NCBI GenBank assembly: GCA_963745025.1 | Contig: CAVUWD010000011.1 | Coordinates: 256,001 to 320,000, forward strand | Reading direction: 5' to 3' | Origin: an uncultured delta proteobacterium | Lineage (GTDB): Bacteria > Desulfobacterota > Binatia > JACPRU01 | DNA: 64,000 nucleotides | Part shown: piece by piece, positions 4,751 to 34,187 of the stretch | Numbering within the stretch: the stretch's first letter is position 1 | Layout: each line of letters opens with the position of its first letter | Notes under the pieces: model-generated | The model's database searches: none | Told to the model about the DNA's origin: nothing | Seen by the model: only the letters and a program-made list of their open reading frames with translations | Program-made: the position numbers and the translations under genes

Positions 4751-6471
4751 CTATTTGGAATTGGGGAATGGCGTCACCTTGACCAACGTGCCCTCTGCTC
4801 CGGGGAAGAACACGCTTCCGTCGTAACCGGGCTGAACCGCGCTTCCCATGGTCATGAAGGGCACCTGATCGGAGCGTGCGAGCTCGCGACCCGTGGCGGC
4901 GTCGCGAAAGACGACCACGTCCGTCTGGTTGTCGCCGGGGATCTGGTCTACCGGGATGTCCGTGCCGACCCAGGTGCGGTTACCCTGCGGGCCGATGAGG
5001 GTGGCCCACTCGGTCGTCGTCTGAGTCTGCTTCCACACGGTCTTGATGCCCGAATCGGTGATCCTGAACGCCGCGACCTTGCGAGCCAGCGTCTCCACTC
5101 CGTAGAAGAGTCCGTTCTGCGGATCGACCTCGAGCGACATGCCGGCCCAGCTGATCGCCGGCGCGAACGCCTTGGCGAGCTCCGGCGGGATCGGATCGTT
5201 GAGATACGGCTGCAGGAAGAATTGACTTCGTGGCATCGTTCTGGTTGATCGCGAACACCGTAAGCGCCCCGGTAGCAGGAATGGAGTTCGTCGCGCCGAC
5301 GATCCAGTCATTCATGACGATCAACGAGCCGCCAGTCTGCTGATTGTCATAGGGAACGGCTGTGGGCGTCCAGTTGGTATCGAGCGAGAAGTGTCCGTGG
5401 TCCACGGAGTAGCGCACCGCGTTCGAGAGGTTCTCCAGCAGGTAAACGTAGTCGACGCCGTGGTACCGAGTGATCGTCGGCCGGGCGGAGCCGCGTGCCG
5501 GCAGAATGATGGTCTCGATGAACTGCATCGTTTCCGGGTCGACCGAGATCAGGTTGGACTGCGGAACGTTTCGGGCGTCTGGGGCAGTTGAGGAGCGCCG
5601 ACGGTCCGTTGAGCGTGCACCCGGCCACTCGGTACAGCGATTTCACCACGATCGTCCCGTCCGGGAGCGCGTTGATGCCGTTGTACGAGGTGTTGACCGC
5701 GTCATCGCGTCAGGGACTGGTCATAGGTCGGCCGGCGTGCTCGGGTAGTTGCAGCGCATGTAGACCGCGGTCGGCAGCACGAGCGTGTCGACGACCTTCC
5801 CGTCGGCCGGATCGACCTTGAAGATCCGGTAGCCGGACACCACGTAGATGTATGCCGTCGTTCTCGATCGCCATGGCGCCGGGGTAGTCCCATTCGCCGG
5901 CTTGCTGCGGCTGGCAGACCGGCGGGGCGCCGCAGCCTTGCTCGTATGTGCAAACCTGCTGCGTGCCGCACTCCTGCTCCGTGTTACGCAGTTGCGTGTA
6001 CCAGACCGGCTTCAGCGTCGTCGGGTCGACCTTCGCGACGAACGGGCCGATCGAGTTCTCGACGTCGCCGTAGCTGCCGCCCTGGATGAAGGCGTTCTTG
6101 TGGTCGAGGTAAGACATGTTGTAGCCGGACGGGTACGCGCCGTCGTCCGAGAAGACGAGGTCCACACGGTTCTTCCCGTTGAACGAGCCGCCGAACTTCG
6201 CCATCGAGAACACGTGCGAGCGGCCGGAGTCGTAGTGCTCGAACGCCTGCAGCGATGGGTACCACGGCGAGTTGGAGCTAGGAGGGATGTTGCCGGGCGA
6301 AGAATTCGTGGAGTTCGGCGGAGCGCCGAAAGCGACGCTCGCTAGCACCCCCGCGGCCGCGACGACAGCCAACGAAGTGCAGACGTGGAGATGGCCGCGG
6401 ATCCGAGCGAGCAGCGGATATCGCGGATGCATCGGGTCGGTGGCCGCTTCTAGATGGTCTTTGAGATCCAT
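4751..6471 (-). CDS. Secreted beta-rich (propeller-like) hypothetical protein, split by about 4 frameshifts
   Basis: ORF pieces 5710..6663, 5347..5649, 4980..5528 and 4751..5311 join into one coherent protein; signal-like segment and beta-strand-rich motifs. Confidence 0.65.
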
Positions 6472-7160
6472 TCCGCTTCCTTTCCCTTTTGCGACACACG
6501 CGCTGGCTCTTGCGAAACCAGCACACGACCATAGCGGGGCGCTGGAGAACGCCCACCAGCGCCGGGATCGTAACATGCTCGGGCGGACCGAGACATTCCT
6601 CCCCGTCTCTACGCCCTTTGGCTGGATTCGCTGATCTTCGCCGCAAGAACCTGCGACCCCCATTTTGACGCCCTTACTGAGAAAACTTGGAGAGAAGCGA
6701 TGCAGCCAGGAATCGACTACATCGTGTCGTTCTACTGATTTTTCTCGCCGTTCTCACTTCTCACCCTCCGCCGGCGCCGAGCGCCGCTTCAGGTACGTCT
6801 CGAGGTCTTCCACCGGCCGCGTGAAGCGATGGTCGATACCTCCATCGGTCGTCGCACGAATTTCATCACGCTCGTGCGGCGCCGTCGATACCAGGTGGGA
6901 CTGATTATCGCTGTGTGAGCCCGTCGAATACTCCGGGCGATGCCAGGAAGCGCTCTCGGCTTGGGCGGGGGAAGTGTCCATGGAGAGGCGCGCTCGCCCG
7001 GGGGCTCTCGGATTGCGCCTACATCTGGCCGGAAGGCTTGGCCTAACTGACGCGAACAGCTTCTTCGTTTTCCACGAGCCCCTTGCGTGGCAGAATCACG
7101 CGAAGACCACAGGCACGCCGCTAGAGGTGTTACCGGTTCGACATCGAAAGCCGCGAGCGG

Positions 7161-7190
7161 CGGATAGGCGGATAGGCGGGACAAGCGGCC
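7161..7190 (-). mobile_element. Putative oriIS end of an IS91/ISCR-like rolling-circle element
   Basis: Minus strand reads GGCCGCTTGTCCCGCCTATCCG, resembling the GC..TTG.....CCTAT(C/A)C oriIS pattern, about 200 nt downstream of an ISCR-type transposase tail; 8-bp tandem duplication CGGATAGG. Confidence 0.45.
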
Positions 7191-7384
7191 TGGTTGACGT
7201 AATCGCTCCATATCCGACGCCTGCCGAACTCACGAGAAACCCGTTTTTACGGCACGCATAAGGAACCTGTCCACCAAAATCACGGTGACGGCGCGCCGGC
7301 GGCCACCCCGCCCCCTCCCGCGTGGCCCGCGAGGCAGAGGGCAAAGAACACTCCGCCCTGGCCTGAGCTTCGCTTGGCTGACTC

Positions 7385-7590
7385 TCAACCGGCGCCGAAG
7401 TCGAAGAACCCCGCCGTCTCCGGAGGCGGCCGCGCGGCCGCAGGCCGCGGGCACTCGGTAGCGATACCGAGGTGAGAGAGGATCTTCCTGATCACCGCCG
7501 GATCCTCGATGGTGGCGAGTAGACGCAGCCGCCCGCCGCACTCGGGGCAGGAAAGAACGTCGATCTCCGCCGTGGCATGCATCATGCGTC
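7385..7590 (-). pseudogene. C-terminal remnant of an ISCR/IS91-type HUH transposase
   Basis: IDVLSCPECGGRLRLLATIEDPAVIRKILSHLGI is the characteristic tail; the catalytic HUH/Y region is absent. Confidence 0.75.
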
Positions 7591-7743
7591 GATCGAGGTG
7601 GGGTCGAGCTCGGCGCAAAAAAAGAAAGGGCAGGAGCGGCAGCGAGCCGGAGGCACTGGAGCCTCGGGGCTGCTGCCGCTGAAGGGCGGGAACAACGCGT
7701 AGGGATGGACTACGGGGGATGAAGAGAAAACTGCCGATGCTAC

Positions 7744-8320
7744 TCACGCGGGCAGCGCGATCTCCCGGGACCGCTCGAGCCTGCTGATCGTCTTGCTTCG
7801 CCGCCGATCCGACACGCGGGCGTAGACGAGGCTCGACTCGATGTTTCGATGACCGAGGTGGTCCTGAACGAAGTCGATCGGCTCGCCTGCGTCGAGAAGG
7901 TGGGTCGCGCAGCTGTGCCTGAGACAATGCACGTGCCTCCGATTCGGCGGGAGATCGGCGGCGGTGGCGTAGCGGGTGAAGAGGGCCTGTATCCAGCGCT
8001 TCGAGAGCCGGCCCTGTCTGACCGACGAAGAGCGCCGCATTGTCATCGGTCCGGGTACGGAGGTATCGCCGGAGAATCGCCACGAGACGCCGAAAGAGCG
8101 GCTTCTCTCCAGAGTAGCCGTTCTTCACACGCCAGACGCGGATCGTGCGGCGTTCGAAGTCGAGGTCCTCTCGCTGAAGCAGGCAAGCCTCGGAGACTCT
8201 GAGGCCGTAGAGGTAGATCGTCGTGAAGAGCGCTTTATCTCGAGGGTTCCTGATGACCGAGAAGAACGCTCGGACCTGGTCTTGGCGGAGGTACCTCGGG
8301 AGGTTCCACTTCACGATCAT
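7744..8320 (-). CDS. Small tyrosine recombinase (about 190 aa, catalytic domain only, FimB/FimE-sized) with one frameshift near 8010
   Basis: GGAGG RBS; YGLRVSE, RVKNG, HCLRHS, LGHRNIESSLVY give the complete R-K-H-R-H-Y set across two frames. Confidence 0.88.
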
Positions 8321-8329
8321 GAACCGCCT

Positions 8330-8798
8330 CCCTTCTTCGATAGAAGGAGGCCCTGCGGTCGGGAGTCTCCGCGGTGGCTGGAGCGCCCCCTGCGGTCCCG
8401 TAAGCGCCGGCGTCTCCTTCGGCGGCAGGAAGCTGCGCAGCACGAGTGTCTGCGGAAGGGCCGTGCGCGGCGGCGCGGGCGGCAATGACTTCGGCTTTTC
8501 TGGCAGGCGCTGCGGCGGCAGCGGCTGGAGCTCGGCGTCCGGGATCTCCTCGAGGTCGGCGTCGCAGCGCGTCGTCCTCAAGATCCGCCCCGCCTCGTCG
8601 TCGATCTTCATCTTCTGGCAGACGTAGATCCAGGTATCGACCAGGTCGACCTGAGCCCAGTAGCGGTCGGCCACCTGGTAGAGCTCGTTCGAGACGATCT
8701 GGACGACGAGATCCCCGACTGCGAACCGGGGCGGCTCAGCACGAGCCACGCCATTCCGCGACGACCCGTCCCGTGGGATCGTCGATCCGATAGGACAT
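8330..8798 (-). CDS. Hypothetical protein with an SH3/KOW-like start (RFAVGDLVVQ) and Pro-rich tail; frameshifted, 3' end uncertain
   Basis: AGGAGG RBS before the ATG at 8798; protein-like sequence continues in the 7385..9181 frame. Confidence 0.5.
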
Positions 8799-8820
8799 AG
8801 GAACCTCCTGTCGTTTTTCT

Positions 8821-10073
8821 CTAAGAGCCTCATCGGCATCACGACGAACTTCAGGCTCTCGTCCGCGGACTCGATGACCATCGGCGACACGTCGTCCTCG
8901 AGCTGGATGACGACCCGCTCCTCCTTGATGAAGCGGAGCGCGTCGAGCAGGTAGTTCGCGTTCAGGCCGATCGAGACCTCGCCGGAGGCCCCGAAGCACG
9001 GCAGCGCCCGGGTGAACTCGCCGAGGTCGGGATGCTGCTTGGAGAGCGTCAGCTTGTCGTCCTTCACCTCGAGCTTCACGCCCTTGGCTTTGTCGGTCGA
9101 GAACGGCAGCGAGGAGCTTAGCGCCTCCATGAAGGCTCTACGGTCGACCACGATGTGGTGCTTGCGCTTCTTGGGGATCACCTGGTCGTAGTCGGGGAAC
9201 GTGCCCTCGACGTAGCGCGACGTGAGCTCGTAGTTGGCGATCCGGAAGGAGCAGCCGTTCTCGTGGAAGTGGCCGACGATCGGCGCTCTTGGTCGCCGCG
9301 GCGATGTCGTCGACGAGCTCGACGACCTTCCTCGGGATCAGGAAGTCGCCTTCGATGGTCGCTCCCGGGATCCTCATCACATGAAGCCGGTGCCCATCGG
9401 TCGCCACCGCCAGGTTCTTGCAGAAGCGAAGGTAGACGCCGCTCATGTTGATCCGCGTCTCGTCGACACTGACTGCGGGCAGCACCGGCTCGAGGCTCGG
9501 GAGCTCGGCGATCTTGGCCGGGCCCTTCATCCGGTCCTTGAAGCCTGACAGCTCCGGGAACTCCTTCGCGTCGTGGCCGATGACGACCGCGTCGTCGATG
9601 ACGACGTTGAAGGGAGCCTTCTCGTGGTTGGCGCTCCGGATCGCGACTCCCGGGGACTGTCCGCGCTTTACGCAGTCATACAGGAGCTTCGCGGGAATCG
9701 ACGCGGCCAGGGGCTTCACCTCCGGGATGAAGACCCGGAGCGCGATGTCGAGGTCCGTGGCGAGCAGCACGCCGTTGTCGAAAAGGACGTCCGCGAGAAT
9801 CGCGATCGTGTTCTGTTTCGCCGCGACGCGGGCTAGGAACTTGAGCGCCAGGGCGAGCGGCTTCCGCGGGATCTCGCCGGCGGCGAGCGCGGGAGGAGCG
9901 GCCCTTTCCGCCTTGGCGGGCACGCTGCGCTTCGGCTTGACGAGCGGCGACGGGCCGAGACGTGCGCCGCTGACGGCTGGTGCCGGCGTCTCGGTGACCG
10001 TCGCCGGCGGCAGAGAAGGCTCTGCGGTTGCCACCGCGGACTCGCCGCGGGTGGCGGGTAGGTTGTCGGACAT
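8821..10073 (-). CDS. dnaN: DNA polymerase III beta-subunit (sliding clamp) homologue in the mobile island; frameshifted near 9285 and at the stop
   Basis: LATDLDIAL, EFPEL, DETRINMSGVY, VATDGHRL, EGTFPDYDQVIP, IGLNANYLLDAL, VVMPMRL; no dnaA/recF/gyrB neighbours. Confidence 0.9.
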
Positions 10074-10097
10074 GGGCACTCCCTTGATTTTGAGGTT

Positions 10098-10126
10098 GAG
10101 TGCCGAGTGGAGAGCACTCGGCACTG
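10098..10126. repeat. Perfect 11-bp-stem hairpin upstream of the clamp gene
   Basis: AGTGCCGAGTG-GAGAG-CACTCGGCACT. Confidence 0.7.
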
Positions 10127-10130
10127 AGAC

Positions 10131-10718
10131 TTACTTCTTCAGGCGCCAGGCGTTCTGCTGGAACCAGGCCTTGACCGCCTCCGCGCCCATGATCGACACG
10201 GGCTGCACCTCGGCGATCCATCCGCCCTCGCCGCAGCCGAAGCACTGTTCGGTGAAGTGCTCGATGTCCTCCGCGCCCTGTTCCCTGGCGAAGCGCTCGA
10301 GGGCCTCTTCGGCTTCCTTCTCGGTGGGATGGGCCTCGCAGAACGCCCACTCGAAGTGCGTCACGCGCTCGTAGACGTGCACGTGCGGATTGCTCAACCC
10401 CGCGCACGAGTCGCACTCGTCACCATCGTCATCGAACTCCGTGTGGTAGTGGATCGCCGTGGCGAGGAACCACTCCGCGCGCTCGCCGCCGGCGGGGAGG
10501 ACGGGCTCCGCCCGCGGCGCCGGCGGATTCGGCGCATCGGCGAATCGCGGCTGGACCGGCGCGGTCGGCGTCTTCCAGGGCGCTGGGCCGAACCCCCCGC
10601 GACGGAATCCGACCTCGCCGTCTCGACGCGGCTCGTATGACACCGGCGAGCCGCCTTCGCGACGCATGTGTCCCGGTACGAGCGAGCCCATGCGCGGAGC
10701 GGGTAGGTTGTGCTTCAT
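10131..10718 (-). CDS. Hypothetical protein, acidic, with possible Zn-binding residues
   Basis: AGGAG RBS; CDSC...HVH...CEAH...CFGC. Confidence 0.65.
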   Translation of the reverse strand: MKHNLPAPRMGSLVPGHMRREGGSPVSYEPRRDGEVGFRRGGFGPAPWKTPTAPVQPRFADAPNPPAPRAEPVLPAGGERAEWFLATAIHYHTEFDDDGDECDSCAGLSNPHVHVYERVTHFEWAFCEAHPTEKEAEEALERFAREQGAEDIEHFTEQCFGCGEGGWIAEVQPVSIMGAEAVKAWFQQNAWRLKK

Positions 10719-10731
10719 CGTGTTCTCCTTC

Positions 10732-11175
10732 TCACCACGCGCCCGTGTCGACGAAGCTCCAGTGCCGGTCGGCGCCGAGGATCACGTGGTCGAGCACGCG
10801 GATGCCGAGGATCTCGCCGGCCTCGCGAAGGCGCCTTGTGAGCTCGGTGTCCTCCGCGGAAGGCTCGGGTTCGCCACTCGGGTGGTTATGCGCGAGAATC
10901 ACGGCCGCGGCGGCGGCGTGAACCGCTGGCCGGAAGACCTCGCGCGGATGACAGAGCGATGCCGTCAGCGTCCCGACCGAGATCACGCGGTAGCCGCCCG
11001 GCTTCACGCGATGCTTCGCGTTCAGAAGCAGCGTGACGAAGACCTCCTGGTCGAGGCCTCCGATCCGCGGCCGGAGGGCCGCGGCGACCTCGTTCGAGCC
11101 GCGAAGCACGCCGATGATCTCCGGCGGCGGCTCGCCGTCACGAATGATCTCGACGCGCGGGAGTGTCGGTTTCAT
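10732..11175 (-). CDS. radC: RadC-like JAB/MPN domain protein (short, mobile-element type)
   Basis: QEVFVTLLLNAKH, HPREVF, AHNHPSGEPEPSAED, GIRVLDHVILG. Confidence 0.93.
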   Translation of the reverse strand: MKPTLPRVEIIRDGEPPPEIIGVLRGSNEVAAALRPRIGGLDQEVFVTLLLNAKHRVKPGGYRVISVGTLTASLCHPREVFRPAVHAAAAAVILAHNHPSGEPEPSAEDTELTRRLREAGEILGIRVLDHVILGADRHWSFVDTGAW

Positions 11176-11438
11176 GTTCCTCCTAGACCGGCCGTAGATG
11201 CGGCCGGAACTTGATGACGTGCGCGCCCCGCCGGCGTGGGACCGTCTTGAAGATCCAGGCAACGAGGGCCCGGACGAGCATCCAGAGGATCTCGCTCGCG
11301 AGCGGCCGCAGCCACCTCGAACCGCAGGTTCCACGCCGCATCCACAGCACGCGCGAACGCGCCCCCTGGTTCCCAGCCCCGCTTCATCCCGCCCCACACC
11401 TTCTGCATGTTCTCCCCGAAGTAGTTCCGCCCCATCAT
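11172..11438 (-). CDS. Small hypothetical protein
   Basis: Translationally coupled on both sides (ATGA overlap with radC); may contain compensating frameshifts. Confidence 0.5.
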   Translation of the reverse strand: MMGRNYFGENMQKVWGGMKRGWEPGGAFARAVDAAWNLRFEVAAAARERDPLDARPGPRCLDLQDGPTPAGRARHQVPAASTAGLGGT

Positions 11439-12195
11439 CACGCCTCCCTCCGGATCGCCTCGCGGATCTCCTCGAGGTCTCTCCCGTCGTCGCGCTCCTC
11501 GCGGAGCATCTTCGCCTTGAGCTCCGCAGCGCAGTGATTGGTGCCGCTCTGGTCGGCCACCATGAAGCGGCAGTTCTCGCACGGGGTGCGATAGAGAAGT
11601 TTGCACGCCCAGAACTGCGTCGCCCGGTCGAGCACGGTGCGGTTGTCGTACACGGTGTACGGACCGACGCGGCCGAGCTTGCGCATGTCCGCTCCCGAGA
11701 CGTCCTCTCCGCCGCGCGACTCGGTCGCATCGGATGCAGACCGAGCCGTCGTCCACCACGGCGGGTCGTCTGCCATGCGCGACGTCGGCCGGAAGGCACC
11801 GAAGCCGGCGGTAGACCCATTCCCGGGTCCACCCTGGTAATAGCCGCCGCCTCCTCGCCGGAAGCCGGACTCTTTCTTCCCCTTCGTCCAGAGATCCGGC
11901 GCCTGGTCGTAGGCCTGCTGGTTCGCGATCCCCTTCGTGAACAGGTGATAGAAGCCGCGGTAGACCACGACCGTGAAGAGCGCCCGGAAGAAGTGCGCGA
12001 GTCCCCACGCTGCCTCGTCGCGGACCCACTGGCCGAAGCCCTTCCCTGCCGTGGCCGTCTCCGCGTTGATCTTGGGCTCGGCCGTTGCGACGTCTGGCCG
12101 CGTTGGCCCGGCGAGCTCGAGTAGCCGCCTCCGGACCTGGTCGGCTCGATCACGATGACCGGCGGCGCGCTGCCGTATGGATCCTTGAAGCTCAT
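11438..12195 (-). CDS. Hypothetical protein with an amphipathic segment, Gly-rich linker and C-terminal Cys cluster; one frameshift
   Basis: Start MSFKDPYG joins the frame of 11438..12490; WACKLLYRTPCENC...NHC. Confidence 0.6.
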
Positions 12196-12516
12196 GTGCG
12201 TGCTCCTCCCTTCTCGAGCACCTCGACGATGTGGTTGAGCTCACCGTTGAAGATCGATTCGACGAGCCACCCCTTGCCGACCGCCTGCTCGAACCAACGC
12301 CGCAGCAACATCGACATGGTGATGACTGCGGCCCACTTCGCGCTGAGCAGCGCCTCTCGCAGCCACCAGTTGCGGCGCTTCTTCGCGCGCCACCAGCTTC
12401 GGATTCGGCGCCCCTGTGCACGCACGAATGCCGGGAATCGCTCGCAACAGCGCGACGCCGCCTCTCCAGTTCCGTTCGATCGGGCGCCACACGCGCTCGA
12501 TCAGTCTTTGCAGCAT
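12192..12516 (-). CDS. Small basic Trp/Arg-rich hypothetical protein; one frameshift
   Basis: AGGAGGTG RBS; ATGA overlap with the downstream gene. Confidence 0.55.
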
Positions 12517-12527
12517 CCTCACCTCCT

Positions 12528-12980
12528 TCATCTCTTCAGGAGCTCTGCCTTCACGAAGACGAACGGGTCTCGGATCTCCCACGCCGGCGCCTCGTCGTAT
12601 CCGGGTAGGCACCTGATCGCGGTCACCGTCAGCGACTCACAGAACGCGGCCGCCTCGGTTTGCTCCCAGTCGTCGGTCTCGCAGGACTGGTACACGTAAC
12701 AACGGATCGCTTTGAGGACGATCACCGGATCGGGCGATCCCGGCAGCATCTTGAACCTGTATTCCGGCACCGCCTCCTCCTCGCCGTAGCGGTAGTTGAC
12801 GCTCCGGCGGTTCTCGGCGATGAGCATTCGCCCGACGTCGTCCTGGGTAAGCTCGTTAAGCTCTCGCTCCTTCCTCGGATCGCCCCAGTACCAGCGAAGC
12901 GGCCCATAGGGACGCACCAGGATGAGCCCCGCGGTCACGAGCGCGTTGATGTGCGTCGCTCCGACCATGAAGGCGCTCAT
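12528..12980 (-). CDS. Conserved phage/plasmid hypothetical protein
   Basis: MSAF...HINALV, GRMLIAENRRSVNYRY, LKAIRCYVYQSCE...W...LPGYDEAPAW is a pattern I recall from phage and conjugative-element early regions; function unknown. Confidence 0.75.
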   Translation of the reverse strand: MSAFMVGATHINALVTAGLILVRPYGPLRWYWGDPRKERELNELTQDDVGRMLIAENRRSVNYRYGEEEAVPEYRFKMLPGSPDPVIVLKAIRCYVYQSCETDDWEQTEAAAFCESLTVTAIRCLPGYDEAPAWEIRDPFVFVKAELLKR

Positions 12981-13489
12981 AACGGGAACATCCCGAGGTC
13001 CGTGATGACGTCGAGCTTCGGATCGAATCCCTTGAGGCACTGGTTTCCGTGGTCGATCACGAACCGCGTGGCGCGTTGGCCGAGGATCTCGATCACCACG
13101 GGTGGATTCCGTGGGTGGTTCCAGAGACCCACCTCGATGAGATCGTCGTCCTGCTTGCCCGCGTAGACGGGCTCGAGCCCCCAGGTGGCCAGCGCCTCCA
13201 TGATCTGGCGCAGCAGATGGATCACGTGCGCGACGTAGGGCTTCCACTTCCGCTCGGGAAGCCGCTGGCCATTCTCGTCGCGGCTGAACCGCTCGTAGTC
13301 GAAGCTGATACGGACCTTCTGGATCTTGCCGTCAGGCCCGCGCGTCCAGAGCTTCGGATCGACGAGCATGACGACCTCCACGCGCCCTCGAGGCAGCAGC
13401 GTCTCGCCGGGTGGTGGATGAACGTGCGACACCTCCGAGAGCGGGATCTTCACCGTCCCGTTCCCGTTCGTGCCCTGCATGGTTTGCAT
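12977..13489 (-). CDS. Hypothetical protein
   Basis: AAGGAG RBS; 4-nt overlap with the next gene; 170 aa. Confidence 0.7.
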   Translation of the reverse strand: MQTMQGTNGNGTVKIPLSEVSHVHPPPGETLLPRGRVEVVMLVDPKLWTRGPDGKIQKVRISFDYERFSRDENGQRLPERKWKPYVAHVIHLLRQIMEALATWGLEPVYAGKQDDDLIEVGLWNHPRNPPVVIEILGQRATRFVIDHGNQCLKGFDPKLDVITDLGMFPL

Positions 13490-13517
13490 GCGGTTGGTCT
13501 CCTTCGAATTCGGAAAG

Positions 13518-13593
13518 TACGAAAAGAAAAGGCCCCGCGGTCCGGCACCCTTTCGAGTGCCGGACTTTGGAGCCTTCGTAGGTAGCTACGAAG
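13518..13593 (-). promoter_or_regulatory. Structured intergenic module e (hairpin + T-tract + outer stem, upstream of an RBS)
   Basis: Minus strand: TACGAAG-GCTCC-AAA-GTCCGGCACTC-GAAA-GGGTGCCGGAC-CGC-GGGGCC-TTTTCTT-TTCGTA; competing hairpin CTTCGTAG/CTACGAAG. Confidence 0.7.
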
Positions 13594-13609
13594 CTAGATC
13601 GCTAGATTG

Positions 13610-13777
13610 CTAGCTTCCCGCCTTGCGGAATCCCGCGTTCTTCTCCTCGGCGCTCGCGCCGCCGGCGAGGATGTCGCCCATGCCGTCGCCCGCGAGACCG
13701 ACCGCGGCGACCGCGGTGAACAACCCGACGCCGATTCCGACGATGCCGATGATGAACTTGCCGATCGCTTTGAGCAT
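13610..13777 (-). CDS. 55-aa single-pass membrane microprotein (not in the ORF track)
   Basis: AAGGAG RBS; MLKAIGKFIIGIVGIGVGLFTAVAAVGLAGDGMGDILAGGASAEEKNAGFRKAGS*. Confidence 0.7.
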   Translation of the reverse strand: MLKAIGKFIIGIVGIGVGLFTAVAAVGLAGDGMGDILAGGASAEEKNAGFRKAGS

Positions 13778-13801
13778 TGCGCTCTCCTTCCCTTTGTTCC
13801 T

Positions 13802-13849
13802 GCGCCAGAAACAGCTGAGCCCTCGGGGCTGGCGCTCACCCGAGGGCTC
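13802..13849 (-). promoter_or_regulatory. Structured intergenic module d
   Basis: Stem GAGCCCTCGGG/CCCGAGGGCTC followed by AGCTGTTTCTGGCGC; loop GCGCCAG is complementary to the downstream CTGGCGC. Confidence 0.6.
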
Positions 13850-13871
13850 TTGCCGCGTGCCATGACAGCGG

Positions 13872-14021
13872 TTACGCCGCTTTGGCGGTGGTGTCGGTGC
13901 TCGGGGCCGCGCTGCCGCCGCGGACGCCCTCGCCGATCGCGTCCGCGCCGAACGCCGCGAAGCAGGCGCCGAACGCGATGAACGCGAGTCCGAAGCACAC
14001 CTTCGAGATCTTCAGAAACAT
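13872..14021 (-). CDS. 49-aa single-pass membrane microprotein
   Basis: AGGAGG RBS; MFLKISKVCFGLAFIAFGACFAAFGADAIGEGVRGGSAAPSTDTTAKAA*. Confidence 0.7.
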   Translation of the reverse strand: MFLKISKVCFGLAFIAFGACFAAFGADAIGEGVRGGSAAPSTDTTAKAA

Positions 14022-14043
14022 GGGAACCTCCTGGTTGTCGTCT

Positions 14044-14119
14044 GGCCGAAAACAAAAACGCCCCGCGGAACGATTCCCCCGGGGCGTCACAGACAGAGCT
14101 CGGCCGTCCTGTCTTACAC
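14044..14119 (-). promoter_or_regulatory. Structured intergenic module c
   Basis: GTGTAAGACAGGAC-GGCCGAG-CTCTGTCTGTG-ACGCCCCG...CGGGGCGT-TTTTGTT-TTCGGCC, then AGGAGG. Confidence 0.75.
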
Positions 14120-14136
14120 TGAGTGTGGCGAACTTT

Positions 14137-14394
14137 TTACGAAGCGTTCAGGTCCCGTTGCCGCGCGCGCCGGCGGCTGGTGATCCATCTGCCCCAGAGC
14201 ACGCTGTCGATGCGCTTCTTCAGCTTCCGCACCGCCTTGTCGAGGCTCTCTCCGGGCTCCGAGACGTAGGTGACCTGGCAGTTGTCAGCGAGCGACTTCG
14301 ACACTTCCCAGCGTCCGTCGATGAGCTTTCCCGAGATGAGACCGTGTCGGGTGAGCTCAGGCCCCGTGAGCTCCTTCACGCCCCCCTCATCCAT
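14137..14394 (-). CDS. Small basic hypothetical protein
   Basis: 85 aa, overlapping the stop of the upstream gene; contains ESLDKAVRKLKKRI. Confidence 0.55.
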   Translation of the reverse strand: MDEGGVKELTGPELTRHGLISGKLIDGRWEVSKSLADNCQVTYVSEPGESLDKAVRKLKKRIDSVLWGRWITSRRRARQRDLNAS

Positions 14395-15001
14395 TGACCG
14401 CCGGGTCGACGGTCGTGGACGTCGCCGTGTCCCCGCCTCCGATCGGGCCGTTCGGCTGACCGCTCGGCTGCGCCACGACCGCGGTCTCGTCGCCGCCGGC
14501 GACCGCCCGGACGATCAGGTAGACCACCCCGATCCCCGCGATCGCCGCGCCCACGCCCCAGACCTTCGGGTTCTTGACGAACTGCCAGGTCTTGTTCGCC
14601 GCGCGCCGCAGCCGGCCGGGCTCCTCGCTGCCGTTGATGTTGATCTGCTCCTGAGTCTGTCCCATGGTCCCGTTCTCCTCTTCTTCTTTGAGCGCCGGCT
14701 CCGTTGCCGGCGGCTCGGTTGGTGGTGGATCGATCTCCACCGGGCCGTCGTAGAGTCGTTCGAACTCTGCGGCGATCTGCCTCTCCACTTGCCTCAGAGC
14801 CTTCACGCAGTACCGGGTCTTCACCGGGTGCGGCACGCGCCACTGACAGCGCTCGACGTAGCGCCGTGCGCGTGCGAGCTCCGCGAGCATCGTGAGCATC
14901 GTGTCGTAGAGCTCCGCGTCCTCCGGCCTCAGCTTCAAACGAATCCGGATCTCGTGGGCTTCCGACTCGACGACTTCCTCAGCCGTTGCTCGATCGTTCA
15001 T
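14387..15001 (-). CDS. Hypothetical protein; the C-terminal half (MGQTQEQ..., single TM) has its own RBS and may be a separate gene
   Basis: AGGAGG RBS; internal GAGGAG-N9-ATG at about 14665; TM segment VWGVGAAIAGIGVVYLIV. Confidence 0.6.
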   Translation of the reverse strand: MNDRATAEEVVESEAHEIRIRLKLRPEDAELYDTMLTMLAELARARRYVERCQWRVPHPVKTRYCVKALRQVERQIAAEFERLYDGPVEIDPPPTEPPATEPALKEEEENGTMGQTQEQININGSEEPGRLRRAANKTWQFVKNPKVWGVGAAIAGIGVVYLIVRAVAGGDETAVVAQPSGQPNGPIGGGDTATSTTVDPAVNG

Positions 15002-15022
15002 TCCCTGCCTCCTCTGGTCAGG

Positions 15023-15086
15023 GCCGAGAAAACAAAAAGCCCCGGAAGGACCTGTTCCTTCTCGGGGCCGCAGGGCAGGTCTCGGC
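15023..15086 (-). promoter_or_regulatory. Structured intergenic module b
   Basis: GCCGAGA-CCTGCCCTGCG-GCCCCGAGAAGGA-ACAGG-TCCTTCCGGGGC-TTTTTGTTT-TCTCGGC, then AGGAGG. Confidence 0.75.
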
Positions 15087-15158
15087 GATGCCCGCCTTGG
15101 TATCGTTCAGCCAGACCGTCGAGTTCTCCTCGTCACCTCCCTTCTGTGCTCTGGCGCC

Positions 15159-15416
15159 TCACCACGACCCAGCGTCGACGAAGCTGTAGTGCTTGCCGTC
15201 ACCGAGGATCACGTGGTCGAGAACGCGGATGCCGACGACTTCGCCGGCTTCCCGCAGGCGCTTCGTGAGCTCGATGTCCTCTGCGCTCGGCGCCGGGTCG
15301 GCGCCTTCAAAGAGGGGCATCAGAAGCCTCGCCGCGTCCGTGGACGTCCGGAGGACGGTCTCCTCGGGCTCGTCTGCTCCGGACTCGCGGACGAGCTCGA
15401 GCCTGTACCTGCGCAT
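15159..15416 (-). CDS. radC: RadC/JAB paralogue with an in-frame internal deletion removing the E and HxH catalytic segment
   Basis: ...LMPLFEGAD joined directly to PAPSAEDIELTKRLREAGEVVGIRVLDHVILG; HNHPSG missing; strong AAGGAGGTG RBS. Confidence 0.8.
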   Translation of the reverse strand: MRRYRLELVRESGADEPEETVLRTSTDAARLLMPLFEGADPAPSAEDIELTKRLREAGEVVGIRVLDHVILGDGKHYSFVDAGSW

Positions 15417-15447
15417 GTGGTCACCTCCTTCCCGCAGGTGGTCTCCT

Positions 15448-15530
15448 CGGCCGAAACGAAAACGCCCCGGTCGAGCAATGGCGCTCGCCGGGGCGCTGGA
15501 CAGACTATGGCCGCAGCTATCCTCTACACA
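15448..15530 (-). promoter_or_regulatory. Structured intergenic module a (first in the island)
   Basis: GTGTAGAGGATAGCTG-CGGCC-ATAGTCTGTCCAG-CGCCCCGG...CCGGGGCG-TTTTCGTTTC-GGCCG, then AAGGAGGTG. Confidence 0.75.
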
Positions 15531-15710
15531 TCATCATGACGCAGAGCGCGGATAAAGGTCACCATGAAAACGCTATTCACTCATTGTCCATCAACGACGC
15601 ACTGCGAATTGTTGACAAATGTGCCCCTGTGGCATTCAGAGGTCACAGTTGCGGTTCTTGCCACTCCGTGTCCAGGATCGAGTCCCGGCCGAGCACGTGA
15701 AAAGCGGCCA

Positions 15711-22696: not shown

Positions 22697-25600
22697 ATGT
22701 CGTCGCAACCTGCTGCTTCACCCCGAGAAAGCTCGGCATCTTCGGTCTCGGCCGAATCGCTCGAAACTCTCCGCCAACTGACGGTTTCGCCGCTCGACGA
22801 GATCACCGCTCCGAAGGCCCTCGCCGCGATCCTCGAGGCACTGCGCCTTCGCTACGGGGCGCTTCTTCGCTACGACTCGGACTCGCAGAGCCTGACGATG
22901 GTCGCGCAGGAAGGGCTGGCGGAGCAGGCGATCGGCGCGATCCGACTCATCCGTCGCGGCGTGAGCGGGGTTTGGGACATGCCGCTCCACGCCGTCCTGC
23001 AGCGACGCGTCTACATCATCGACAGGCCGAAGGAGAATCCCTTCGTGCCCACGCTGCTCCAGGGTAGCGACCAGGGAGTGCTCACCAACGCCGCCGTCAT
23101 GCCGCTGTTCGCGGAGGGGTCGGTGACCGGTGCGCTCCTGCTCGTCGGTAGCGGAAAGCGCGCCATCCACGAGACCGACATCGTCAAGCTACGCGAAGCC
23201 GCGAAGAACCTGGGCACGGCTCTCCGCTTGCCGTCGAAGCTGGAGCCGCGTGCGGCGCACGTGCTCACGCAACCGATCTCGGCGTCGGCTCGCGAGGAAT
23301 CGGTACGGGATCGCGCAATGCTCAAGGCGCGAATCAGCGAGCTCGAGTCGCTGGTCGAATCGCTGCGCCGCACCGCGGGTGGAACGTCGAGCGCAACGGA
23401 GACCGAGCGGCGTCTGGCGGACATCGGACGGGAGCGCGACCGTCACAAATCCGAAGCCGCGCTTCACGAGATCGCGCTCCGCAATCTCCGCGCCGAGTAC
23501 GACTTGGTCCGCGACCAGAGCGCCTCGGAAGCCGAACGCGGCCGCAAGCTCGCGCTCGAGCTCGCCCGAGAGAGAGAACAGCTCGCCGCCGCCGTGGAGA
23601 GCGGCCAGCGGTCGACCGAAGAGCTCGCGCAGGCGAATCGTTCGCGCACCGAGCTCCAGGAACGGCTCGGCGCTCTCGAGCGCCAGCTCGGCGAGACCGC
23701 GAAACAAGTCCATGCCGGCGAAGCCACGCGGGCCGAGATCGCCTCCCGTCTCTCGGTAGCGGAGCGCGACACCGAAGAGCTGCGAAAGAGTTTGCGTGCG
23801 CGCGAGGAGCAAGTCAGCGAGCTCCGTGGCGAGCGCGAGCGCCTGACGGCATCTCTGCAGAAAGCAGCCGCCCGCTACCAGGCGGTCGAGGACGCGACGG
23901 CTCAGCTCGGCGAGGGGTCGGAGATCGCGCAGGCGGAGCTCCGCGGCCAAATCGAAGTCCTGCAGGCGCGCCTCGAGGCGAGCGAGCGGGAGCGAGATCA
24001 GTTGTCTGCGGGTCTCGCTGGCCGGTCGGAGATCGTGCGCGAGATCGAGCGAGAGACCGAACGGTTCCGGACCGAGCTCGCCCGCGAGGTGGAACGCCGC
24101 CGCGTCGCCGAGCAGACCGCGTCGAGCGTGATCCACGATGCCGCAGCGCTGCGCGTCGAGGCCGAACGCGTGCAGGCGGAGCGGCAGATGGCACACGCCG
24201 AGGCGGAGCAATCGCGCACCGAGGCGCAGCAACTCGCCGCCGAGATCGACGCGCTTCGCAAGAGCTCGCAGGGGGAAACCGAGCGACTCCGCCAACAGGC
24301 GGCCGATCTCCAGACCCGCGCCGAGCGGGCGGAATCGATGCGCAACGCGCTCGCCGCGGAAGTCGAGCGCCTGCGTCCGGATCTCGAAAGCCATCGCAAG
24401 AGCGAGGCCGATCTCCGCTCCCGGGACGCCGGCCGGCAGGAAGCCGAACGGGCGCTCCAGGCCGAGGTCGCAGAGCTGCGCAATCGGCTGCAGGAAACCG
24501 CCGAGTCGGCGCGCGCGCTCTCGCGCGAGCGGGATGCGTTGCTCGCCCGCGCCGCCACCCTTCAAGAAACGACGGCCAACTTGCTGCGCGACGGCGAAGC
24601 GCTGCGTGCCGAGCGCGATGGTCGCGACCAGGAGCTCGAAAGCGTCCGCGCGGCCGCCGAGGCCAAAGCGGCCGAGGCCGAGCGCCTACGAGCGGAAGTC
24701 GAGGGCCTACGGGGTTTGGCCCAGGGCGTCGAGGCGGACCTCGGCGAGGCGCGGGGCGGCCAGGCCGCGGCGCTCGAACGTGCGCAGGTGCTGGAGAGCG
24801 AGCTCGCAAGCCTTCGCGGGGAGCTCGAACGCGCGCAGTCGCGCGGCAGCGAGCTCACGGTGGAGCTCGCCCGGCGCGCGCAGCTCGAAGAGTCGTTGCA
24901 AGCCGCGGCCGGTGAAAGTCGCCGGCAGCTCGAGGACACCGAGCGTCGCCGGCTCGAGGAGGAGCTCCAGCGCAACGAGCTCGAGGGCCGGCTACGGCAG
25001 CTCGAGCAACAGCTCCAGGGCGCGAGCGCCGATCTCGCCGAAAAGACGCGCGAGATCGACTTCGCGTCAGTGCTCCGCGCGACCCTGGCGAAATCGGAGC
25101 GCGCGCGGCGCGCCGCGGAAGAGGCCGTCATTCGGCTCGAGGCGGCGCTCGACACGGAGCGGCAGGCGAGCGTGCGGCTGCGTCTCGAAAATGACTCCGA
25201 GCGCGAGAGCGCCCACGAGCTCGCACGTAGGCTGGAAGAGCTGGAGCGCAGGCTCGATGAAGCCGAGGCGGCAATCGGAGAGGCCAACCAGCGCGCCGAG
25301 GCGATCGCCGCGGAGCGAGGAGCAGCGCAAGAGACAACCCAGTCGCTCGCCGCCGAGCTCGGTCGTCGCACGGCGGAGCTCGGCGAGCTATCGAGCCGCC
25401 TCGAGTTTGCCGAGCGAGATTTGCAAGAGCGTGAAGCAGCCGTGCAGCGGTCGCTCGCGCACGCGCAGACCGTCGAGCAGAGCGCGCGAGCAGCCGCTCA
25501 GGAGATCGAAGCCCTCAAGCGCCAAGCACTGGCGAGTCAGGACGAGAAAGACCGGCGGATCCACGAGCTCGAGCTGCGTGTCACCGAGACGGCAGGCCGG

Positions 25601-33998: not shown

Positions 33999-34039
33999 GA
34001 AACCCTCCCTCCACCTCGCAACCACCGCAACCTGCCGGG

Positions 34040-34069
34040 AGTCTAGAATCCTATATCAGCGAATGTCAA
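34040..34069 (-). promoter_or_regulatory. Sigma70-type promoter for thrB
   Basis: TTGACA-18 nt-TAGACT on the minus strand. Confidence 0.65.
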
Positions 34070-34187
34070 GGACTTTTCCCCTGTTGTCATTTTTGAACAG
34101 AGAGGAAGAGAAATTACGTAGCAACTAACAGACACCGGCCAAGCGCTCGACATTTCAGGGATTTATTTCGCGAGGACCGGAACCCAA

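What the first reader, a model, noticed from the sequence alone, without database searches (positions are those of the whole stretch)
7161..15550. Candidate new mobile system: small-gene array with structured leaders, two RadC genes, a sliding clamp and a minimal tyrosine recombinase
Seen in sequence: about 15 co-oriented, translationally coupled genes running radC(deleted), unknowns and microproteins, a conserved phage/plasmid protein, radC, a Cys/His protein, a dnaN homologue, an unknown gene and a ~190-aa tyrosine recombinase, ending in an ISCR-type remnant. No capsid, relaxase, T4SS or replication initiator is visible. Established: short RadC/JAB genes and runs of small genes are typical of the early or leading regions of conjugative elements, which are enriched in anti-defence genes. 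Inference: this is an establishment/anti-defence or host-takeover operon of an uncharacterised element family, and its small genes are candidate new anti-defence proteins. I do not recognise this gene combination as a named system.
Basis: partly seen in the sequence, partly recalled or inferred. Interest (0 to 1): 0.82.

Follow-up and report, generated by a model that had tools for sequence, protein, structure and literature searches.

The report
Decayed copy of clamp-carrying mobile module
An 8-kb run of small same-strand genes in an uncultured soil or sediment bacterium is one worn copy of a little gene module (RadC, a private sliding clamp, unknown proteins, a mini recombinase) that sits at several places in the genome and whose function is still unknown.

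Summary
Three of them (clamp, the unknown gene Y, the recombinase) are each broken by single-base insertions that paralogous copies lack. The first radC has lost its catalytic core.

The block is not core synteny. Its marker genes are absent from 400 other genomes of the phylum and from 6 of 8 genomes of the order. It lies at a different locus in the sister species. G000 holds further full, partial and remnant copies.

A second, intact version (33-36% identical) in the same genome, together with 32 soil-metagenome contigs, defines a conserved core:
- a structured leader
- a small membrane peptide
- RadC
- o77
- X
- small proteins
- a DnaN-like clamp
- Y
- a 191-aa recombinase
- a terminator hairpin

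The ISCR/IS91-type piece is a neighbour, not part of the module. No described phage, plasmid, defence system or RNA family matches. The whole assembly has no VirD4/TraG-type coupling protein, no VirB4 ATPase and no HK97-type capsid gene.

I found no ends with repeats, no empty site and no circles, so mobility is inferred. The function (establishment or anti-defence) remains untested.

The parts
15449..15548 (-). Left end of the module: conserved GCGTCAT-type box, then leader unit 1 (hairpin 1, GC-rich hairpin 2, T-run, CGGCC box), then SD and ATG of radC-del
   Evidence: Sequence. Same unit at the left end of the C6 copy and of metagenome loci (A3). Units listed, folds, alignment A8, nhmmer.
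15159..15416 (-). radC with internal deletion (85 aa), no HNHPSG metal site
   Evidence: Pfam RadC E 3.5e-14, profile positions 76-119 only. Alignment A9 shows about 60 residues missing.
15022..15099 (-). Leader unit 2. Homology with the sister-species copy begins just behind its hairpin 2 (about 15063).
14387..15001 (-). o204, unknown protein with a hydrophobic C-terminal stretch
   Evidence: ORF and GC3. No hit in Pfam, PHROGs, NCBIfam, PADLOC or PDB. 72% identical in G001 over aa 1-150.
14137..14394 (-). o85, unknown; overlaps the o204 stop by 8 nt
   Evidence: No family.
14044..14116 (-). Leader unit 3, before the first small membrane peptide
13872..14021 (-). Small hydrophobic peptide (49 aa from the ATG at 14021)
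   Evidence: No Pfam.
13610..13777 (-). o55, small hydrophobic peptide. Relatives stand between leader and RadC in 5 metagenome loci; a paralogous small peptide (not matched by tblastn) holds that place in the C6 copy.
   Evidence: tblastn (L015, L017, L019, L028, L029). A3 (C6 peptide).
12977..13489 (-). o170, unknown
   Evidence: 95% identical in G001. No family.
12528..12980 (-). o148, member of a plasmid/phage 'hypothetical protein' family; ATGA overlap with o170
   Evidence: 58 clusters. 54 plasmid and 6 phage records. pMyong1 context. dN/dS 0.08 against G001.
12192..12425 (-). o77, small protein. Relatives stand before X in L036 and L037, and (by my own reading, not a tool score) in the C6 copy.
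11438..12112 (-). X: long helix, disordered linker, C-terminal 4-Cys domain; marker gene of the module
   Evidence: 33% identical to the C6 copy. 65 metagenome clusters, no Pfam. A1. AF2 pLDDT 50.
11176..11437 (-). Micro-ORF zone with several 1-nt differences from G001; coding status unclear
10732..11175 (-). RadC (JAB), 147 aa, HNHPSG and SxxD present
   Evidence: Pfam E 1.4e-38. A9. Start coordinate.
10131..10718 (-). CH195, Cys/His-rich unknown protein; only the C-terminal two thirds are conserved
   Evidence: dN/dS 0.26.
8822..10073 (-). DnaN-like clamp with a ~60-90-aa N-terminal extension. The frame is broken by an extra base at 9283, and there is no stop behind MPMRL.
   Evidence: Pfam domains. 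Indels. Intact in C17 and G001. dN/dS 0.15-0.38.
8321..8798 (-). Y (short form: SH3-like barrel plus tail); extra bases at 8740 and 8360
   Evidence: The extra base at 8360 is also absent from contigs of 3 of 3 covering runs.
7744..8320 (-). 191-aa-type tyrosine recombinase, catalytic domain only; extra base at 8019
   Evidence: Pfam halves. Intact paralogues in A4. NCBIfam. Indel.
7620..7690 (-). Right end: about 18-bp GC hairpin plus T-run. Homology among copies stops 15-20 nt behind it.
   Evidence: A2. Folds.
7385..7612 (-). Neighbour, not part of the module: C-terminal ~75 aa of an ISCR/IS91-type transposase
   Evidence: tblastn to at least 5000 plasmid records, features 'transposase' and 'ISCR1'. 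Shared with G001 up to its stop. Absent behind Int in 5 other copies.
7170..7252 (.). Neighbour: ~85-bp repeat found at about 20 other places of the genome
   Evidence: blastn.

Best explanation
SHOWN.
The block is one copy of a lineage-restricted accessory gene module. Its conserved core is: leader (two hairpins plus T-run), small membrane peptide, RadC/JAB, o77, X (4-Cys protein), one or two small proteins, a DnaN-like clamp with an N-terminal extension, Y (zinc ribbon and/or SH3-like barrel), a 191-aa catalytic-domain-only tyrosine recombinase whose start overlaps the Y stop, and a strong terminator hairpin.

The window copy is enlarged. It carries two extra leader-headed gene groups and a plasmid/phage-type gene. 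It is also damaged: clamp, Y and recombinase are frameshifted, and one radC has lost its core.

INFERRED.
- The module is, or recently was, a small (5-8 kb) integrative element moved by its own recombinase, with the translationally coupled Y as partner.
- RadC, X and the private clamp act on DNA replication or repair (of the host or of a competitor) to the element's benefit.
- The repeated leaders are promoter-proximal regulatory units (attenuator or operator) that switch the gene groups together.
- The ISCR/IS91-type piece is only a neighbour.
For: Copies in G000:
- C17:42762-45674, 95% nt identity. Clamp and Int ORFs are uninterrupted, Y reads as one ORF, and the clamp's stop codon is lost.
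- C6:496-501 kb carries RadC-X-clamp-Y-Int, all intact. X, clamp and Y are 33-36% aa identical to the window copy; Int is 81% identical.
- A fragment at C6:540 kb, plus Int or RadC remnants on C8, C11, C14, C19 and C20.

Sister species G001:
- It has the block at 82-94% nt identity on another contig with other flanks.
- The window's right flank lies elsewhere in G001.

Distribution:
- X is found in 0 of 400 other genomes of the phylum and in 2 of 8 of the order.
- The element-type clamp is found in 2 of 8 of the order, and only housekeeping-size hits appear in 3 of 400.
- Y is found in 3 of 8.

Synteny on 32 metagenome loci:
- The clamp lies behind X in 17.
- RadC lies before X in 11.
- Y lies behind the clamp in 3.
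- Int lies behind Y in 1.
- Most of the other contigs end within a few hundred bases of X.

Boundaries: sharp common boundaries exist among copies with unlike flanks (A2; A3).

Genes are real and were recently constrained. dN/dS between copies is 0.08-0.38 for o148, X, clamp, CH195 and Int, against 0.15 for a core gene.

Y and Int: the Y-Int stop/start overlap appears in C17, C6 and the L046 coordinates. A Y-Int pair stands without a clamp in G006.

Leaders: 7 nhmmer hits in the genome. Five head module-type gene groups: three in the window, one at the C6 module, and one on C8 before a second core-less radC.
Against: - No direct or inverted repeat of 9 nt or more joins the two ends, and no inverted repeats in or around the C6 copy.
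- No tRNA lies next to any copy.
- No empty site was found in relatives.
- No credible circle or deletion joint appears in contigs of 4 runs.
- Divergence of the block between G000 and G001 (dS 0.05-0.23) is like that of a core gene (0.17). Vertical descent plus rearrangement would also fit.
- All three window-type copies are damaged or truncated.
- The recombinase has no DNA-binding N-terminal domain, and no fused Y-recombinase form exists among 47 relatives of Y in 1.84 billion proteins.
- No function of X, Y, CH195, o170, o204, g1 or g2 could be derived.
Confidence: 0.5

Rival explanations
1. Non-autonomous cargo. The module is a piece of the early or establishment region of a larger element (prophage, plasmid, ICE). 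It has been scattered and truncated by IS elements and recombination, and its recombinase does not move it.
For: - RadC, clamp and o148 relatives occur on plasmids and temperate phages.
- On pMyong1, o148 sits in a small-gene array with DUF932 next to a MobF relaxase.
- Copies lie beside IS remnants.
- Many copies are truncated from the 5' side.
- No att-like repeats were found.
Against: - The same left and right boundaries recur with unlike flanks.
- The C6 copy is flanked by ordinary-looking genes within 5.1 kb.
- X, Y and the clamp were not found on 2.9 million viral contigs.
- The block DNA matches no phage record, and on plasmids only radC and o148 bits.
- The assembly has no T4CP, VirB4 or HK97 capsid gene (assembly 92.65% complete).
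Confidence: 0.2
2. The frameshifts are consensus errors of the assembly in a multi-copy region, and the window copy is in fact intact and functional.
For: - All five window-specific differences are single extra bases, and none is a missing base. G001's own differences in X, RadC and Y are also extra bases.
- Substitutions show purifying selection.
- The genome is in 20 contigs, which suggests long reads (inference).
- The region has 95%-identical paralogues that could disturb polishing.
Against: - Four of the five insertions are not in homopolymers.
- A core stretch of 2.3 kb shows only 3 single-base differences against G001, where the block shows about 45 in 7.6 kb.
- The radC deletion and the truncated paralogues are real decay in any case.
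- Other runs lack the base at 8360 but come from other populations, so they cannot decide.
Confidence: 0.3
3. The core (RadC, X, clamp, Y) is a phage-defence or stress operon of the host that merely rides on a recombinase cassette.
For: - Patchy, multi-copy distribution.
- Fast divergence of X, clamp and Y (33-36%) beside a conserved Int (81%).
- Defence islands often sit near recombinases and IS (general knowledge).
Against: 0 of 10 proteins hit any of 5027 PADLOC models. Nothing links the proteins to sensing or killing. I recall no known defence system that uses a DnaN homologue; this was not searched exhaustively.
Confidence: 0.1
4. The leader units are recombination sites and the block is a cassette array (see the section on the most novel reading).
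For: - Three units in direct orientation bound gene groups.
- The outer heptamers GGYCGAG and CTCGGCC are inverse complements around a variable hairpin.
- The G000/G001 homology break lies exactly behind hairpin 2 of unit 2.
- A unit on C8 heads other cargo.
Against: - The T-run and the fixed distance to SD and ATG fit an RNA leader.
- The right end of the module is not such a unit.
- Int scores 76.5 bits against a cut-off of 265 for integron integrases.
- Only 7 units exist in the genome.
Confidence: 0.07

Closest known systems
Small integrative elements and phage satellites with a terminal tyrosine recombinase (for example minimalist islands of 5-6 kb; recalled, not searched)
   Same: Size of 5-8 kb. 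Recombinase gene at one end. Patchy, multi-copy, lineage-restricted occurrence with decaying copies.
   Different: No att repeats, tRNA target, excisionase, primase or packaging gene found. Not on viral contigs. It carries its own sliding clamp, and the recombinase has no N-terminal domain.
Leading/establishment regions of conjugative plasmids and ICEs (Nature 2024, PMC11541004: search listing and start of abstract only)
   Same: Arrays of small co-oriented genes that include RadC. The o148 family lies in such an array beside a MobF relaxase on pMyong1.
   Different: No T4CP or VirB4 in the whole assembly. Relaxase families were not searched in the whole assembly. The module has its own recombinase, clamp and terminator-bounded ends.
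Repeated promoter/operator units before establishment genes of plasmid p576, repressed by Reg576 (PMC6294495: abstract and outline read)
   Same: The same conserved regulatory unit, with heptamer motifs, is repeated before several gene groups of one mobile-element operon.
   Different: Here the unit holds two hairpins and a T-run (attenuator-like). No repressor was identified, and promoter activity is not shown.
FimB/FimE-type minimal tyrosine invertases
   Same: About 190-200 aa, catalytic domain only. NCBIfam NF007370 matches at 8.6e-21 over residues 25-175.
   Different: The score is far below the cut-off (74.5 against 221). No inverted repeats were found that could bound an invertible segment.
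IS91/ISCR elements, some with an accessory integrase gene (recalled). G006 shows a full IS91-type transposase behind a 294-aa integrase.
   Same: In the window, C17 and G001 the recombinase is followed by an ISCR-type transposase remnant in the same orientation.
   Different: Five other Int copies have no such remnant. The 294-aa IS91-linked integrase is only 37-38% identical and has an N-terminal domain. No Y2_Tnp domain is left here.
Phage- and plasmid-encoded DnaN clamps (PHROG 947; Rhizobium phage 16-3 p081 and others)
   Same: Full-length match to PHROG 947 (1.1e-37). 26-34% identity to phage and replicon DnaN.
   Different: There is an N-terminal Pro/Ala-rich extension with a conserved DNLPA start. 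There is no polymerase or other replisome gene beside it. It falls below the DnaN equivalog cut-off.
Integrons
   Same: Xer/IntI-like catalytic domain. Repeated structured units with conserved outer inverse heptamers and a variable inner hairpin lie between gene groups.
   Different: See the rival explanation above. Integron integrase model: 76.5 bits against a cut-off of 265. The recombinase gene lies at the 3' end of the co-oriented genes. The units carry T-runs and ribosome sites.

Membership tests
RadC-like JAB (PF04002) | Full-length domain match over the curated cut-off | tested here: met
   10732-11175: 131.9 bits against a cut-off of 22.1, profile positions 3-119 of 121.
RadC-like JAB (PF04002) | Metal-binding core HxHPSG...SxxD (motif recalled) | tested here: met
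   Present in the full RadC and in the C6 and C8 full copies (A9). NOT present in 15159-15416, which keeps only the first ~20 and last ~50 residues.
DnaN beta clamp | Three clamp domains (PF00712, PF02767, PF02768) | tested here: inconclusive
   Domain 3 scores 73.3 bits, over its cut-off. Domains 1 and 2 score 17.0 and 22.6 bits, below their cut-offs. The C6 version matches PHROG 947 at profile positions 10-363 of 368, E 1.1e-37.
DnaN beta clamp | Equivalog of the housekeeping subunit (TIGR00663 cut-off 137.65) | tested here: not met
   74.7 bits. A separate 374-aa-frame copy lies on C10.
Tyrosine recombinase (PF00589) | Catalytic domain over the cut-off, with R..K..HxxR..H..Y (residue roles recalled) | tested here: met
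   Window halves score 47.9 and 55.6 bits. Intact 191-aa paralogues are aligned in A4, with the RVSE, HCLRHS, LGH and VYARV motifs invariant. The window copy itself is frameshifted.
Tyrosine recombinase (PF00589) | N-terminal core-binding (SAM-like) domain, usual in Xer and phage integrases | tested here: not met
   The protein starts at profile position 2 of the catalytic domain. XerA, XerC and XerD models match only their C-terminal parts.
Integron integrase | TIGR02249 / NF011946 over the cut-off | tested here: not met
   76.5 bits against 265, and 38.3 bits against 435.
IS91/ISCR element | Y2 HUH transposase domain (PF04986) and zinc domain (PF14319) | tested here: not met
   The 598-aa frame over 7385-9181 hits only the clamp and integrase domains. 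Only the last ~75 aa resemble ISCR1-type transposases. The G006 control hits both domains.
Conjugative element (leading region) | T4SS coupling protein and VirB4 ATPase in the same element or genome | tested here: not met
   PF02534 and PF03135: 0 matches in G000 (92.65% complete). Relaxase families were not searched genome-wide. None was hit among the block's ORFs.
Prophage or phage satellite | Capsid or terminase genes nearby, or presence on viral contigs | tested here: not met
   PF05065: 0 in G000. X, Y and the clamp were not found in IMG/VR. PHROGs hits only for RadC, clamp and Int. Terminase was not searched.
Known anti-phage defence systems (PADLOC-DB 2.0) | Any component model matched | tested here: not met
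   0 of 10 proteins.
Integrative element moved by its own recombinase | Repeat-bounded ends, empty site in a relative, or excised circle | tested here: inconclusive
   Sharp common ends, but no shared repeat of 9 nt or more, no empty site and no circle joint in contigs of 4 runs. Raw reads of the source were not available.
Known RNA families (Rfam 15) for the leader | Match at the gathering score | tested here: not met
   0 matches in the window. At E up to 1, only a chance snoRNA hit.

The most novel reading that the evidence does not exclude
The ~75-nt two-hairpin units (outer inverse heptamers GGYCGAG/CTCGGCC around a variable GC hairpin) are recombination sites for the minimal recombinase, with Y and the element's own sliding clamp as accessory factors. 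On this reading the block is a cassette array of a new, integron-like gene-capture system, rather than an operon with RNA leaders.
Probability: 0.07. Interest if true: 0.85.

Novelty: new variant of a known kind. Interest (0 to 1): 0.45.

Why it matters
If the module is a self-moving element, it would be an unusually small one that brings its own beta clamp and a recombinase stripped to its catalytic domain. That raises two questions: how such a recombinase finds its DNA, and what a private clamp does for a mobile element.

Transposases are known to use the host clamp (PMC3971601 and PMC4549789; search listing and start of abstracts only). An element-encoded clamp coupled to a recombinase has not turned up in my searches.

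Practical points:
- X, Y, g1, g2, CH195, o170 and o204 are families without any annotation.
- The leader is an undescribed structured element.
- The host lineage is uncultured, so tests would have to be heterologous.
- The copy in this window is damaged. The intact C6 copy of the same genome is the one to study.

Tried and rejected
- Empty-site search: the window with its flanks against 30 relatives, and the C6 copy with its flanks against 5 relatives. Flanks were either not found or rearranged. A huge paralogous adenylate-cyclase family swamped.
- Inversion idea. G001 C13 has a leader-peptide-RadC piece next to the same flank gene in the opposite orientation, but the breakpoints differ by about 300 nt and the copy is cut by an IS. 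No inverted repeats were found. Dropped.
- Terminal repeats: none of 9 nt or more.
- tRNA targets: none.
- Reads. Only Logan contigs of other populations could be laid. The listed joints have 21-26-nt sides or are replaced stretches, so there is no evidence of circles. The table showed only the 8360 insertion; the other three frameshift places were not among the rows shown.
- Structure. The Y model has pLDDT 58, and Foldseek against PDB gave no match at E 0.001 or better; the best weak rows are SH3-like, chromo-barrel or Tudor folds. The X model has pLDDT 50 and was not searched.
- ESM Atlas gave nothing usable for o148 or o170.
- PDB sequence searches of CH195, o170, o204 and X gave nothing.
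- Complex prediction with clamp, Int and Y (partner): no verdict, score 0.00. This is neither for nor against binding.
- A possible clamp-binding motif in the Y tail (IDLVG / QTLVL) and the conserved tail LLxGKxGG were considered. The tail overlaps the ribosome site of Int, so its conservation may be at the DNA level. Not claimed.
- Y as a detached N-terminal domain of Int: no fused form among 47 relatives.
- RNAalifold on MAFFT alignments of the leaders was out of register, so no formal covariation count was made. The claim of compensatory change rests on the single folds and sequences.
- A genome-contig scan with X found nothing.
- PMC10288648 was opened for 'tyrosine recombinase' passages and proved irrelevant.
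- Supplements of papers were not consulted.

Full report
**What is there.**
The window is G000:C11:256001-320000 of a 5.6-Mb, 66% GC assembly in 20 contigs. Between about 15550 and 7380, GC3 marks continuous coding on the minus strand.

The ORFs and family scans give this order:
- A radC of 85 aa that matches only the last third of the RadC profile and lacks the HNHPSG core.
- o204 and o85.
- Two small hydrophobic peptides, o72 and o55.
- o170.
- o148.
- o77.
- X.
- A zone of micro-ORFs.
- A full RadC.
- A Cys/His protein, CH195.
- A DnaN homologue.
- Y.
- A tyrosine recombinase.
- A hairpin with a T-run.
- The last ~75 residues of an ISCR1/IS91-type transposase.

Each is a single extra base that is absent from the 95%-identical paralogue on C17 and from the copy in the sister species.

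**It is a repeated, accessory module.**
- G000 holds a second copy of the CH195-clamp-Y-Int part on C17. The clamp and Int ORFs there are uninterrupted, but the clamp's stop codon is lost.
- A fragment of o148-o77-X lies on C6:540 kb.
- Recombinase or RadC remnants lie on C8, C11, C14, C19 and C20.
- On C6:496-501 kb there is a complete and intact second version, RadC-X-clamp-Y-Int. X, clamp and Y are only 33-36% identical to the window's; Int is 81% identical.
- The same-genus genome G001 carries the window-type block at 82-94% nt identity on another contig with other flanks. The window's right flank lies on yet another G001 contig.

G001's copy has its own extra bases, in X, RadC and Y.

**Distribution.**
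- X was found in none of 400 other genomes sampled from the phylum.
- X occurs in only 2 of the 8 genomes of the order, all incomplete MAGs.
- The element-type clamp occurs in the same 2 of 8. At phylum level only housekeeping-size DnaN frames appear, in 3 of 400.
- Y occurs in 3 of 8.
- G000 has four clamp loci, one of them the 374-aa-frame housekeeping-type copy on C10.

This refutes 'core chromosomal synteny'.

**The conserved core.**
X has 65 relatives and Y 47 in 5.8 billion proteins. All come from metagenomes, are named 'hypothetical' or unnamed, and have no Pfam domain.

On 32 metagenome loci fetched with X:
- The clamp gene follows X in 17.
- RadC precedes X in 11.
- Y follows the clamp in 3.
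- Int follows Y in 1.
- A small hydrophobic peptide precedes RadC in 5.
- Most other contigs end within a few hundred bases of X.

Two further small conserved genes (g1, 63 aa; g2, about 85 aa; ATGA overlap) fill the X-clamp gap of the C6 type. An o77-like gene fills the RadC-X gap; I identified it in the C6 copy by eye from the translation, not by a tool score.

The window type differs in three ways:
- RadC sits behind X.
- CH195 stands in place of g1 and g2.
- It carries extra groups: o204-o85, a second peptide, and o170-o148.

**Ends.**
Among eight recombinase copies, homology stops 15-20 nt behind a conserved ~18-bp hairpin plus T-run downstream of the recombinase gene. Only the window, C17 and G001 continue into the ISCR-type remnant. 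That remnant is therefore a neighbour.

On the other side, the C6 copy, a G001 partial copy and metagenome loci become alike about 150 nt before the first small gene, at a GCGTCAT-type box followed by a two-hairpin unit. The window shows the same unit at 15548-15449.

**Leaders.**
The unit consists of:
- hairpin 1, with loop GGYCGAG;
- a 12-14-bp GC hairpin;
- a T-run;
- the box TTTCTCGGCC;
- an SD and ATG 25-35 nt later.

It occurs three times in the window, before radC-del, o204 and o72. It also occurs at the corresponding places in G001, at the C6 copy and in metagenome loci. The stems differ in sequence but keep pairing.

nhmmer finds 7 units in G000. Five head module-type gene groups, one of them on C8 before a second core-less radC. 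No Rfam family matches.

Two details are noteworthy:
- The hairpin-1 loop is the inverse complement of the box behind the T-run.
- The G000/G001 homology starts just behind hairpin 2 of unit 2.

I read the units as promoter-proximal regulatory leaders. That they are DNA recombination sites is the bolder reading, and it is not excluded.

**Are the genes alive?**
Between copies, dN/dS values are:

| Gene | dN/dS |
|---|---|
| o148 | 0.08 |
| Int C-terminal half | 0.09 |
| X (C-terminal part) | 0.11 |
| Clamp | 0.15-0.38 |
| CH195 | 0.26 |
| Y | 0.5-0.8 |
| Neighbouring core gene (control) | 0.15 |

The genes have therefore been under constraint until recently.

The frameshifts are either very young or consensus errors:
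- For errors: all are insertions, in a multi-copy region.
- For real changes: four of five are outside homopolymers, and the block has about 45 length differences in 7.6 kb against G001, where 2.3 kb of core DNA has 3.

Contigs of three other runs lack the base at 8360, but they come from other populations.

**What it is not.**
- No protein hits PADLOC.
- PHROGs hits only RadC, clamp and Int.
- The block's DNA matches no phage record. On plasmids it matches only bits of radC and o148.
- X, Y and the clamp are not on IMG/VR contigs.
- The assembly has no T4SS coupling protein, VirB4 or HK97 capsid match.
- The flanking genes scanned are ordinary metabolic genes.
- The clamp is about 30% identical to DnaN of replicons and temperate phages.
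- o148 is the one clear link to plasmid early regions.

**How it most likely works (inference).**
Int is a complete catalytic domain with the usual motifs (A4). It has no N-terminal domain, as in FimB/FimE-size enzymes.

Its start overlaps the stop of Y in intact copies, and a Y-Int pair survives alone in G006. I therefore take Y-Int as the recombination unit. Y has a zinc ribbon in the long form and an SH3-like barrel by a modest model.

RadC, X and the clamp with its N-terminal extension would serve establishment or maintenance by acting on replication or repair. None of this is shown.

Mobility itself rests on copy number, patchy distribution, sharp common ends and differing loci. I found no att-like repeats, empty site or circles.

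**Literature.**
Four searches found no description of a RadC-clamp-minimal-recombinase element, and a fifth looked for IS91 elements with an accessory integrase gene. These cover open-access text only.

Relatives' records are titled 'MAG: uncultured delta proteobacterium'. A recombinase remnant occurs in a 'Candidatus Binatia bacterium' MAG.

**Verdict.**
This is a real, undescribed, lineage-restricted module, seen here in a damaged copy. Its function and mobility are unproven. Interest is moderate.

Noticed in passing
window 7170-7252: An ~85-bp sequence recurs at about 20 other places of the genome (contigs C4, C6, C15, C16, C17, C19) at 78-94% identity. It may be an IS end or a miniature element.
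   Followed up: no
window 4751-6663 (minus strand): The gene left of the block is read as three overlapping ORFs, as if frameshifted too. No Pfam hit.
   Followed up: no
G000:C8:44982-46319: A leader unit is followed by a 252-aa Cys-rich ORF and a second radC that also lacks the catalytic core. Its breakpoints differ from those of the window's radC-del, so the core was lost twice or the short form is kept.
   Followed up: partly
L001 17058-17678 (G000:C17); also G000 C16:838 kb and C14:15.7 kb: The same last ~65 residues of an ISCR/IS91-type transposase occur at four or more loci without the rest of the gene. At one locus the piece is fused in frame behind a double-zinc-ribbon/adenylate-cyclase-like N-terminus.
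   Followed up: partly
L002 12317-12892 against L001 8901-9476: The recombinase is 81% identical between the two module types of G000, while X, clamp and Y are 33-36% identical. In metagenome locus L046 the recombinase N-half is only 61% identical. This suggests homogenisation within a genome or host-specific constraint.
   Followed up: no
L051 8300-9600 (G001:C13) against L002 13000-13400: A partial module (leader, peptide, RadC) abuts the 3' end of the same secreted-protein gene that flanks the recombinase end of the C6 copy in G000. It is in the opposite orientation and about 300 nt closer.
   Followed up: partly
L052 253-2343 (G006:C7): A full IS91-type transposase (Y2_Tnp plus Zn_Tnp_IS91) is preceded by a 294-aa integrase. 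It lies 5 kb from a lone Y-Int pair.
   Followed up: partly
L002 2256-5654 and many loci of G001 and G006: There is a very large paralogous family of ~1100-aa proteins with double zinc ribbon, cyclase-like and repeat regions (my reading of the sequence; family not scanned). Dozens of DNA matches per genome.
   Followed up: no
window 23000-26000 and 33000-35000: Strong AT skew (0.23-0.36) and high GC lie inside a 1398-aa GAF-domain ORF. A low-GC (0.57) stretch lies at 33-35 kb.
   Followed up: no
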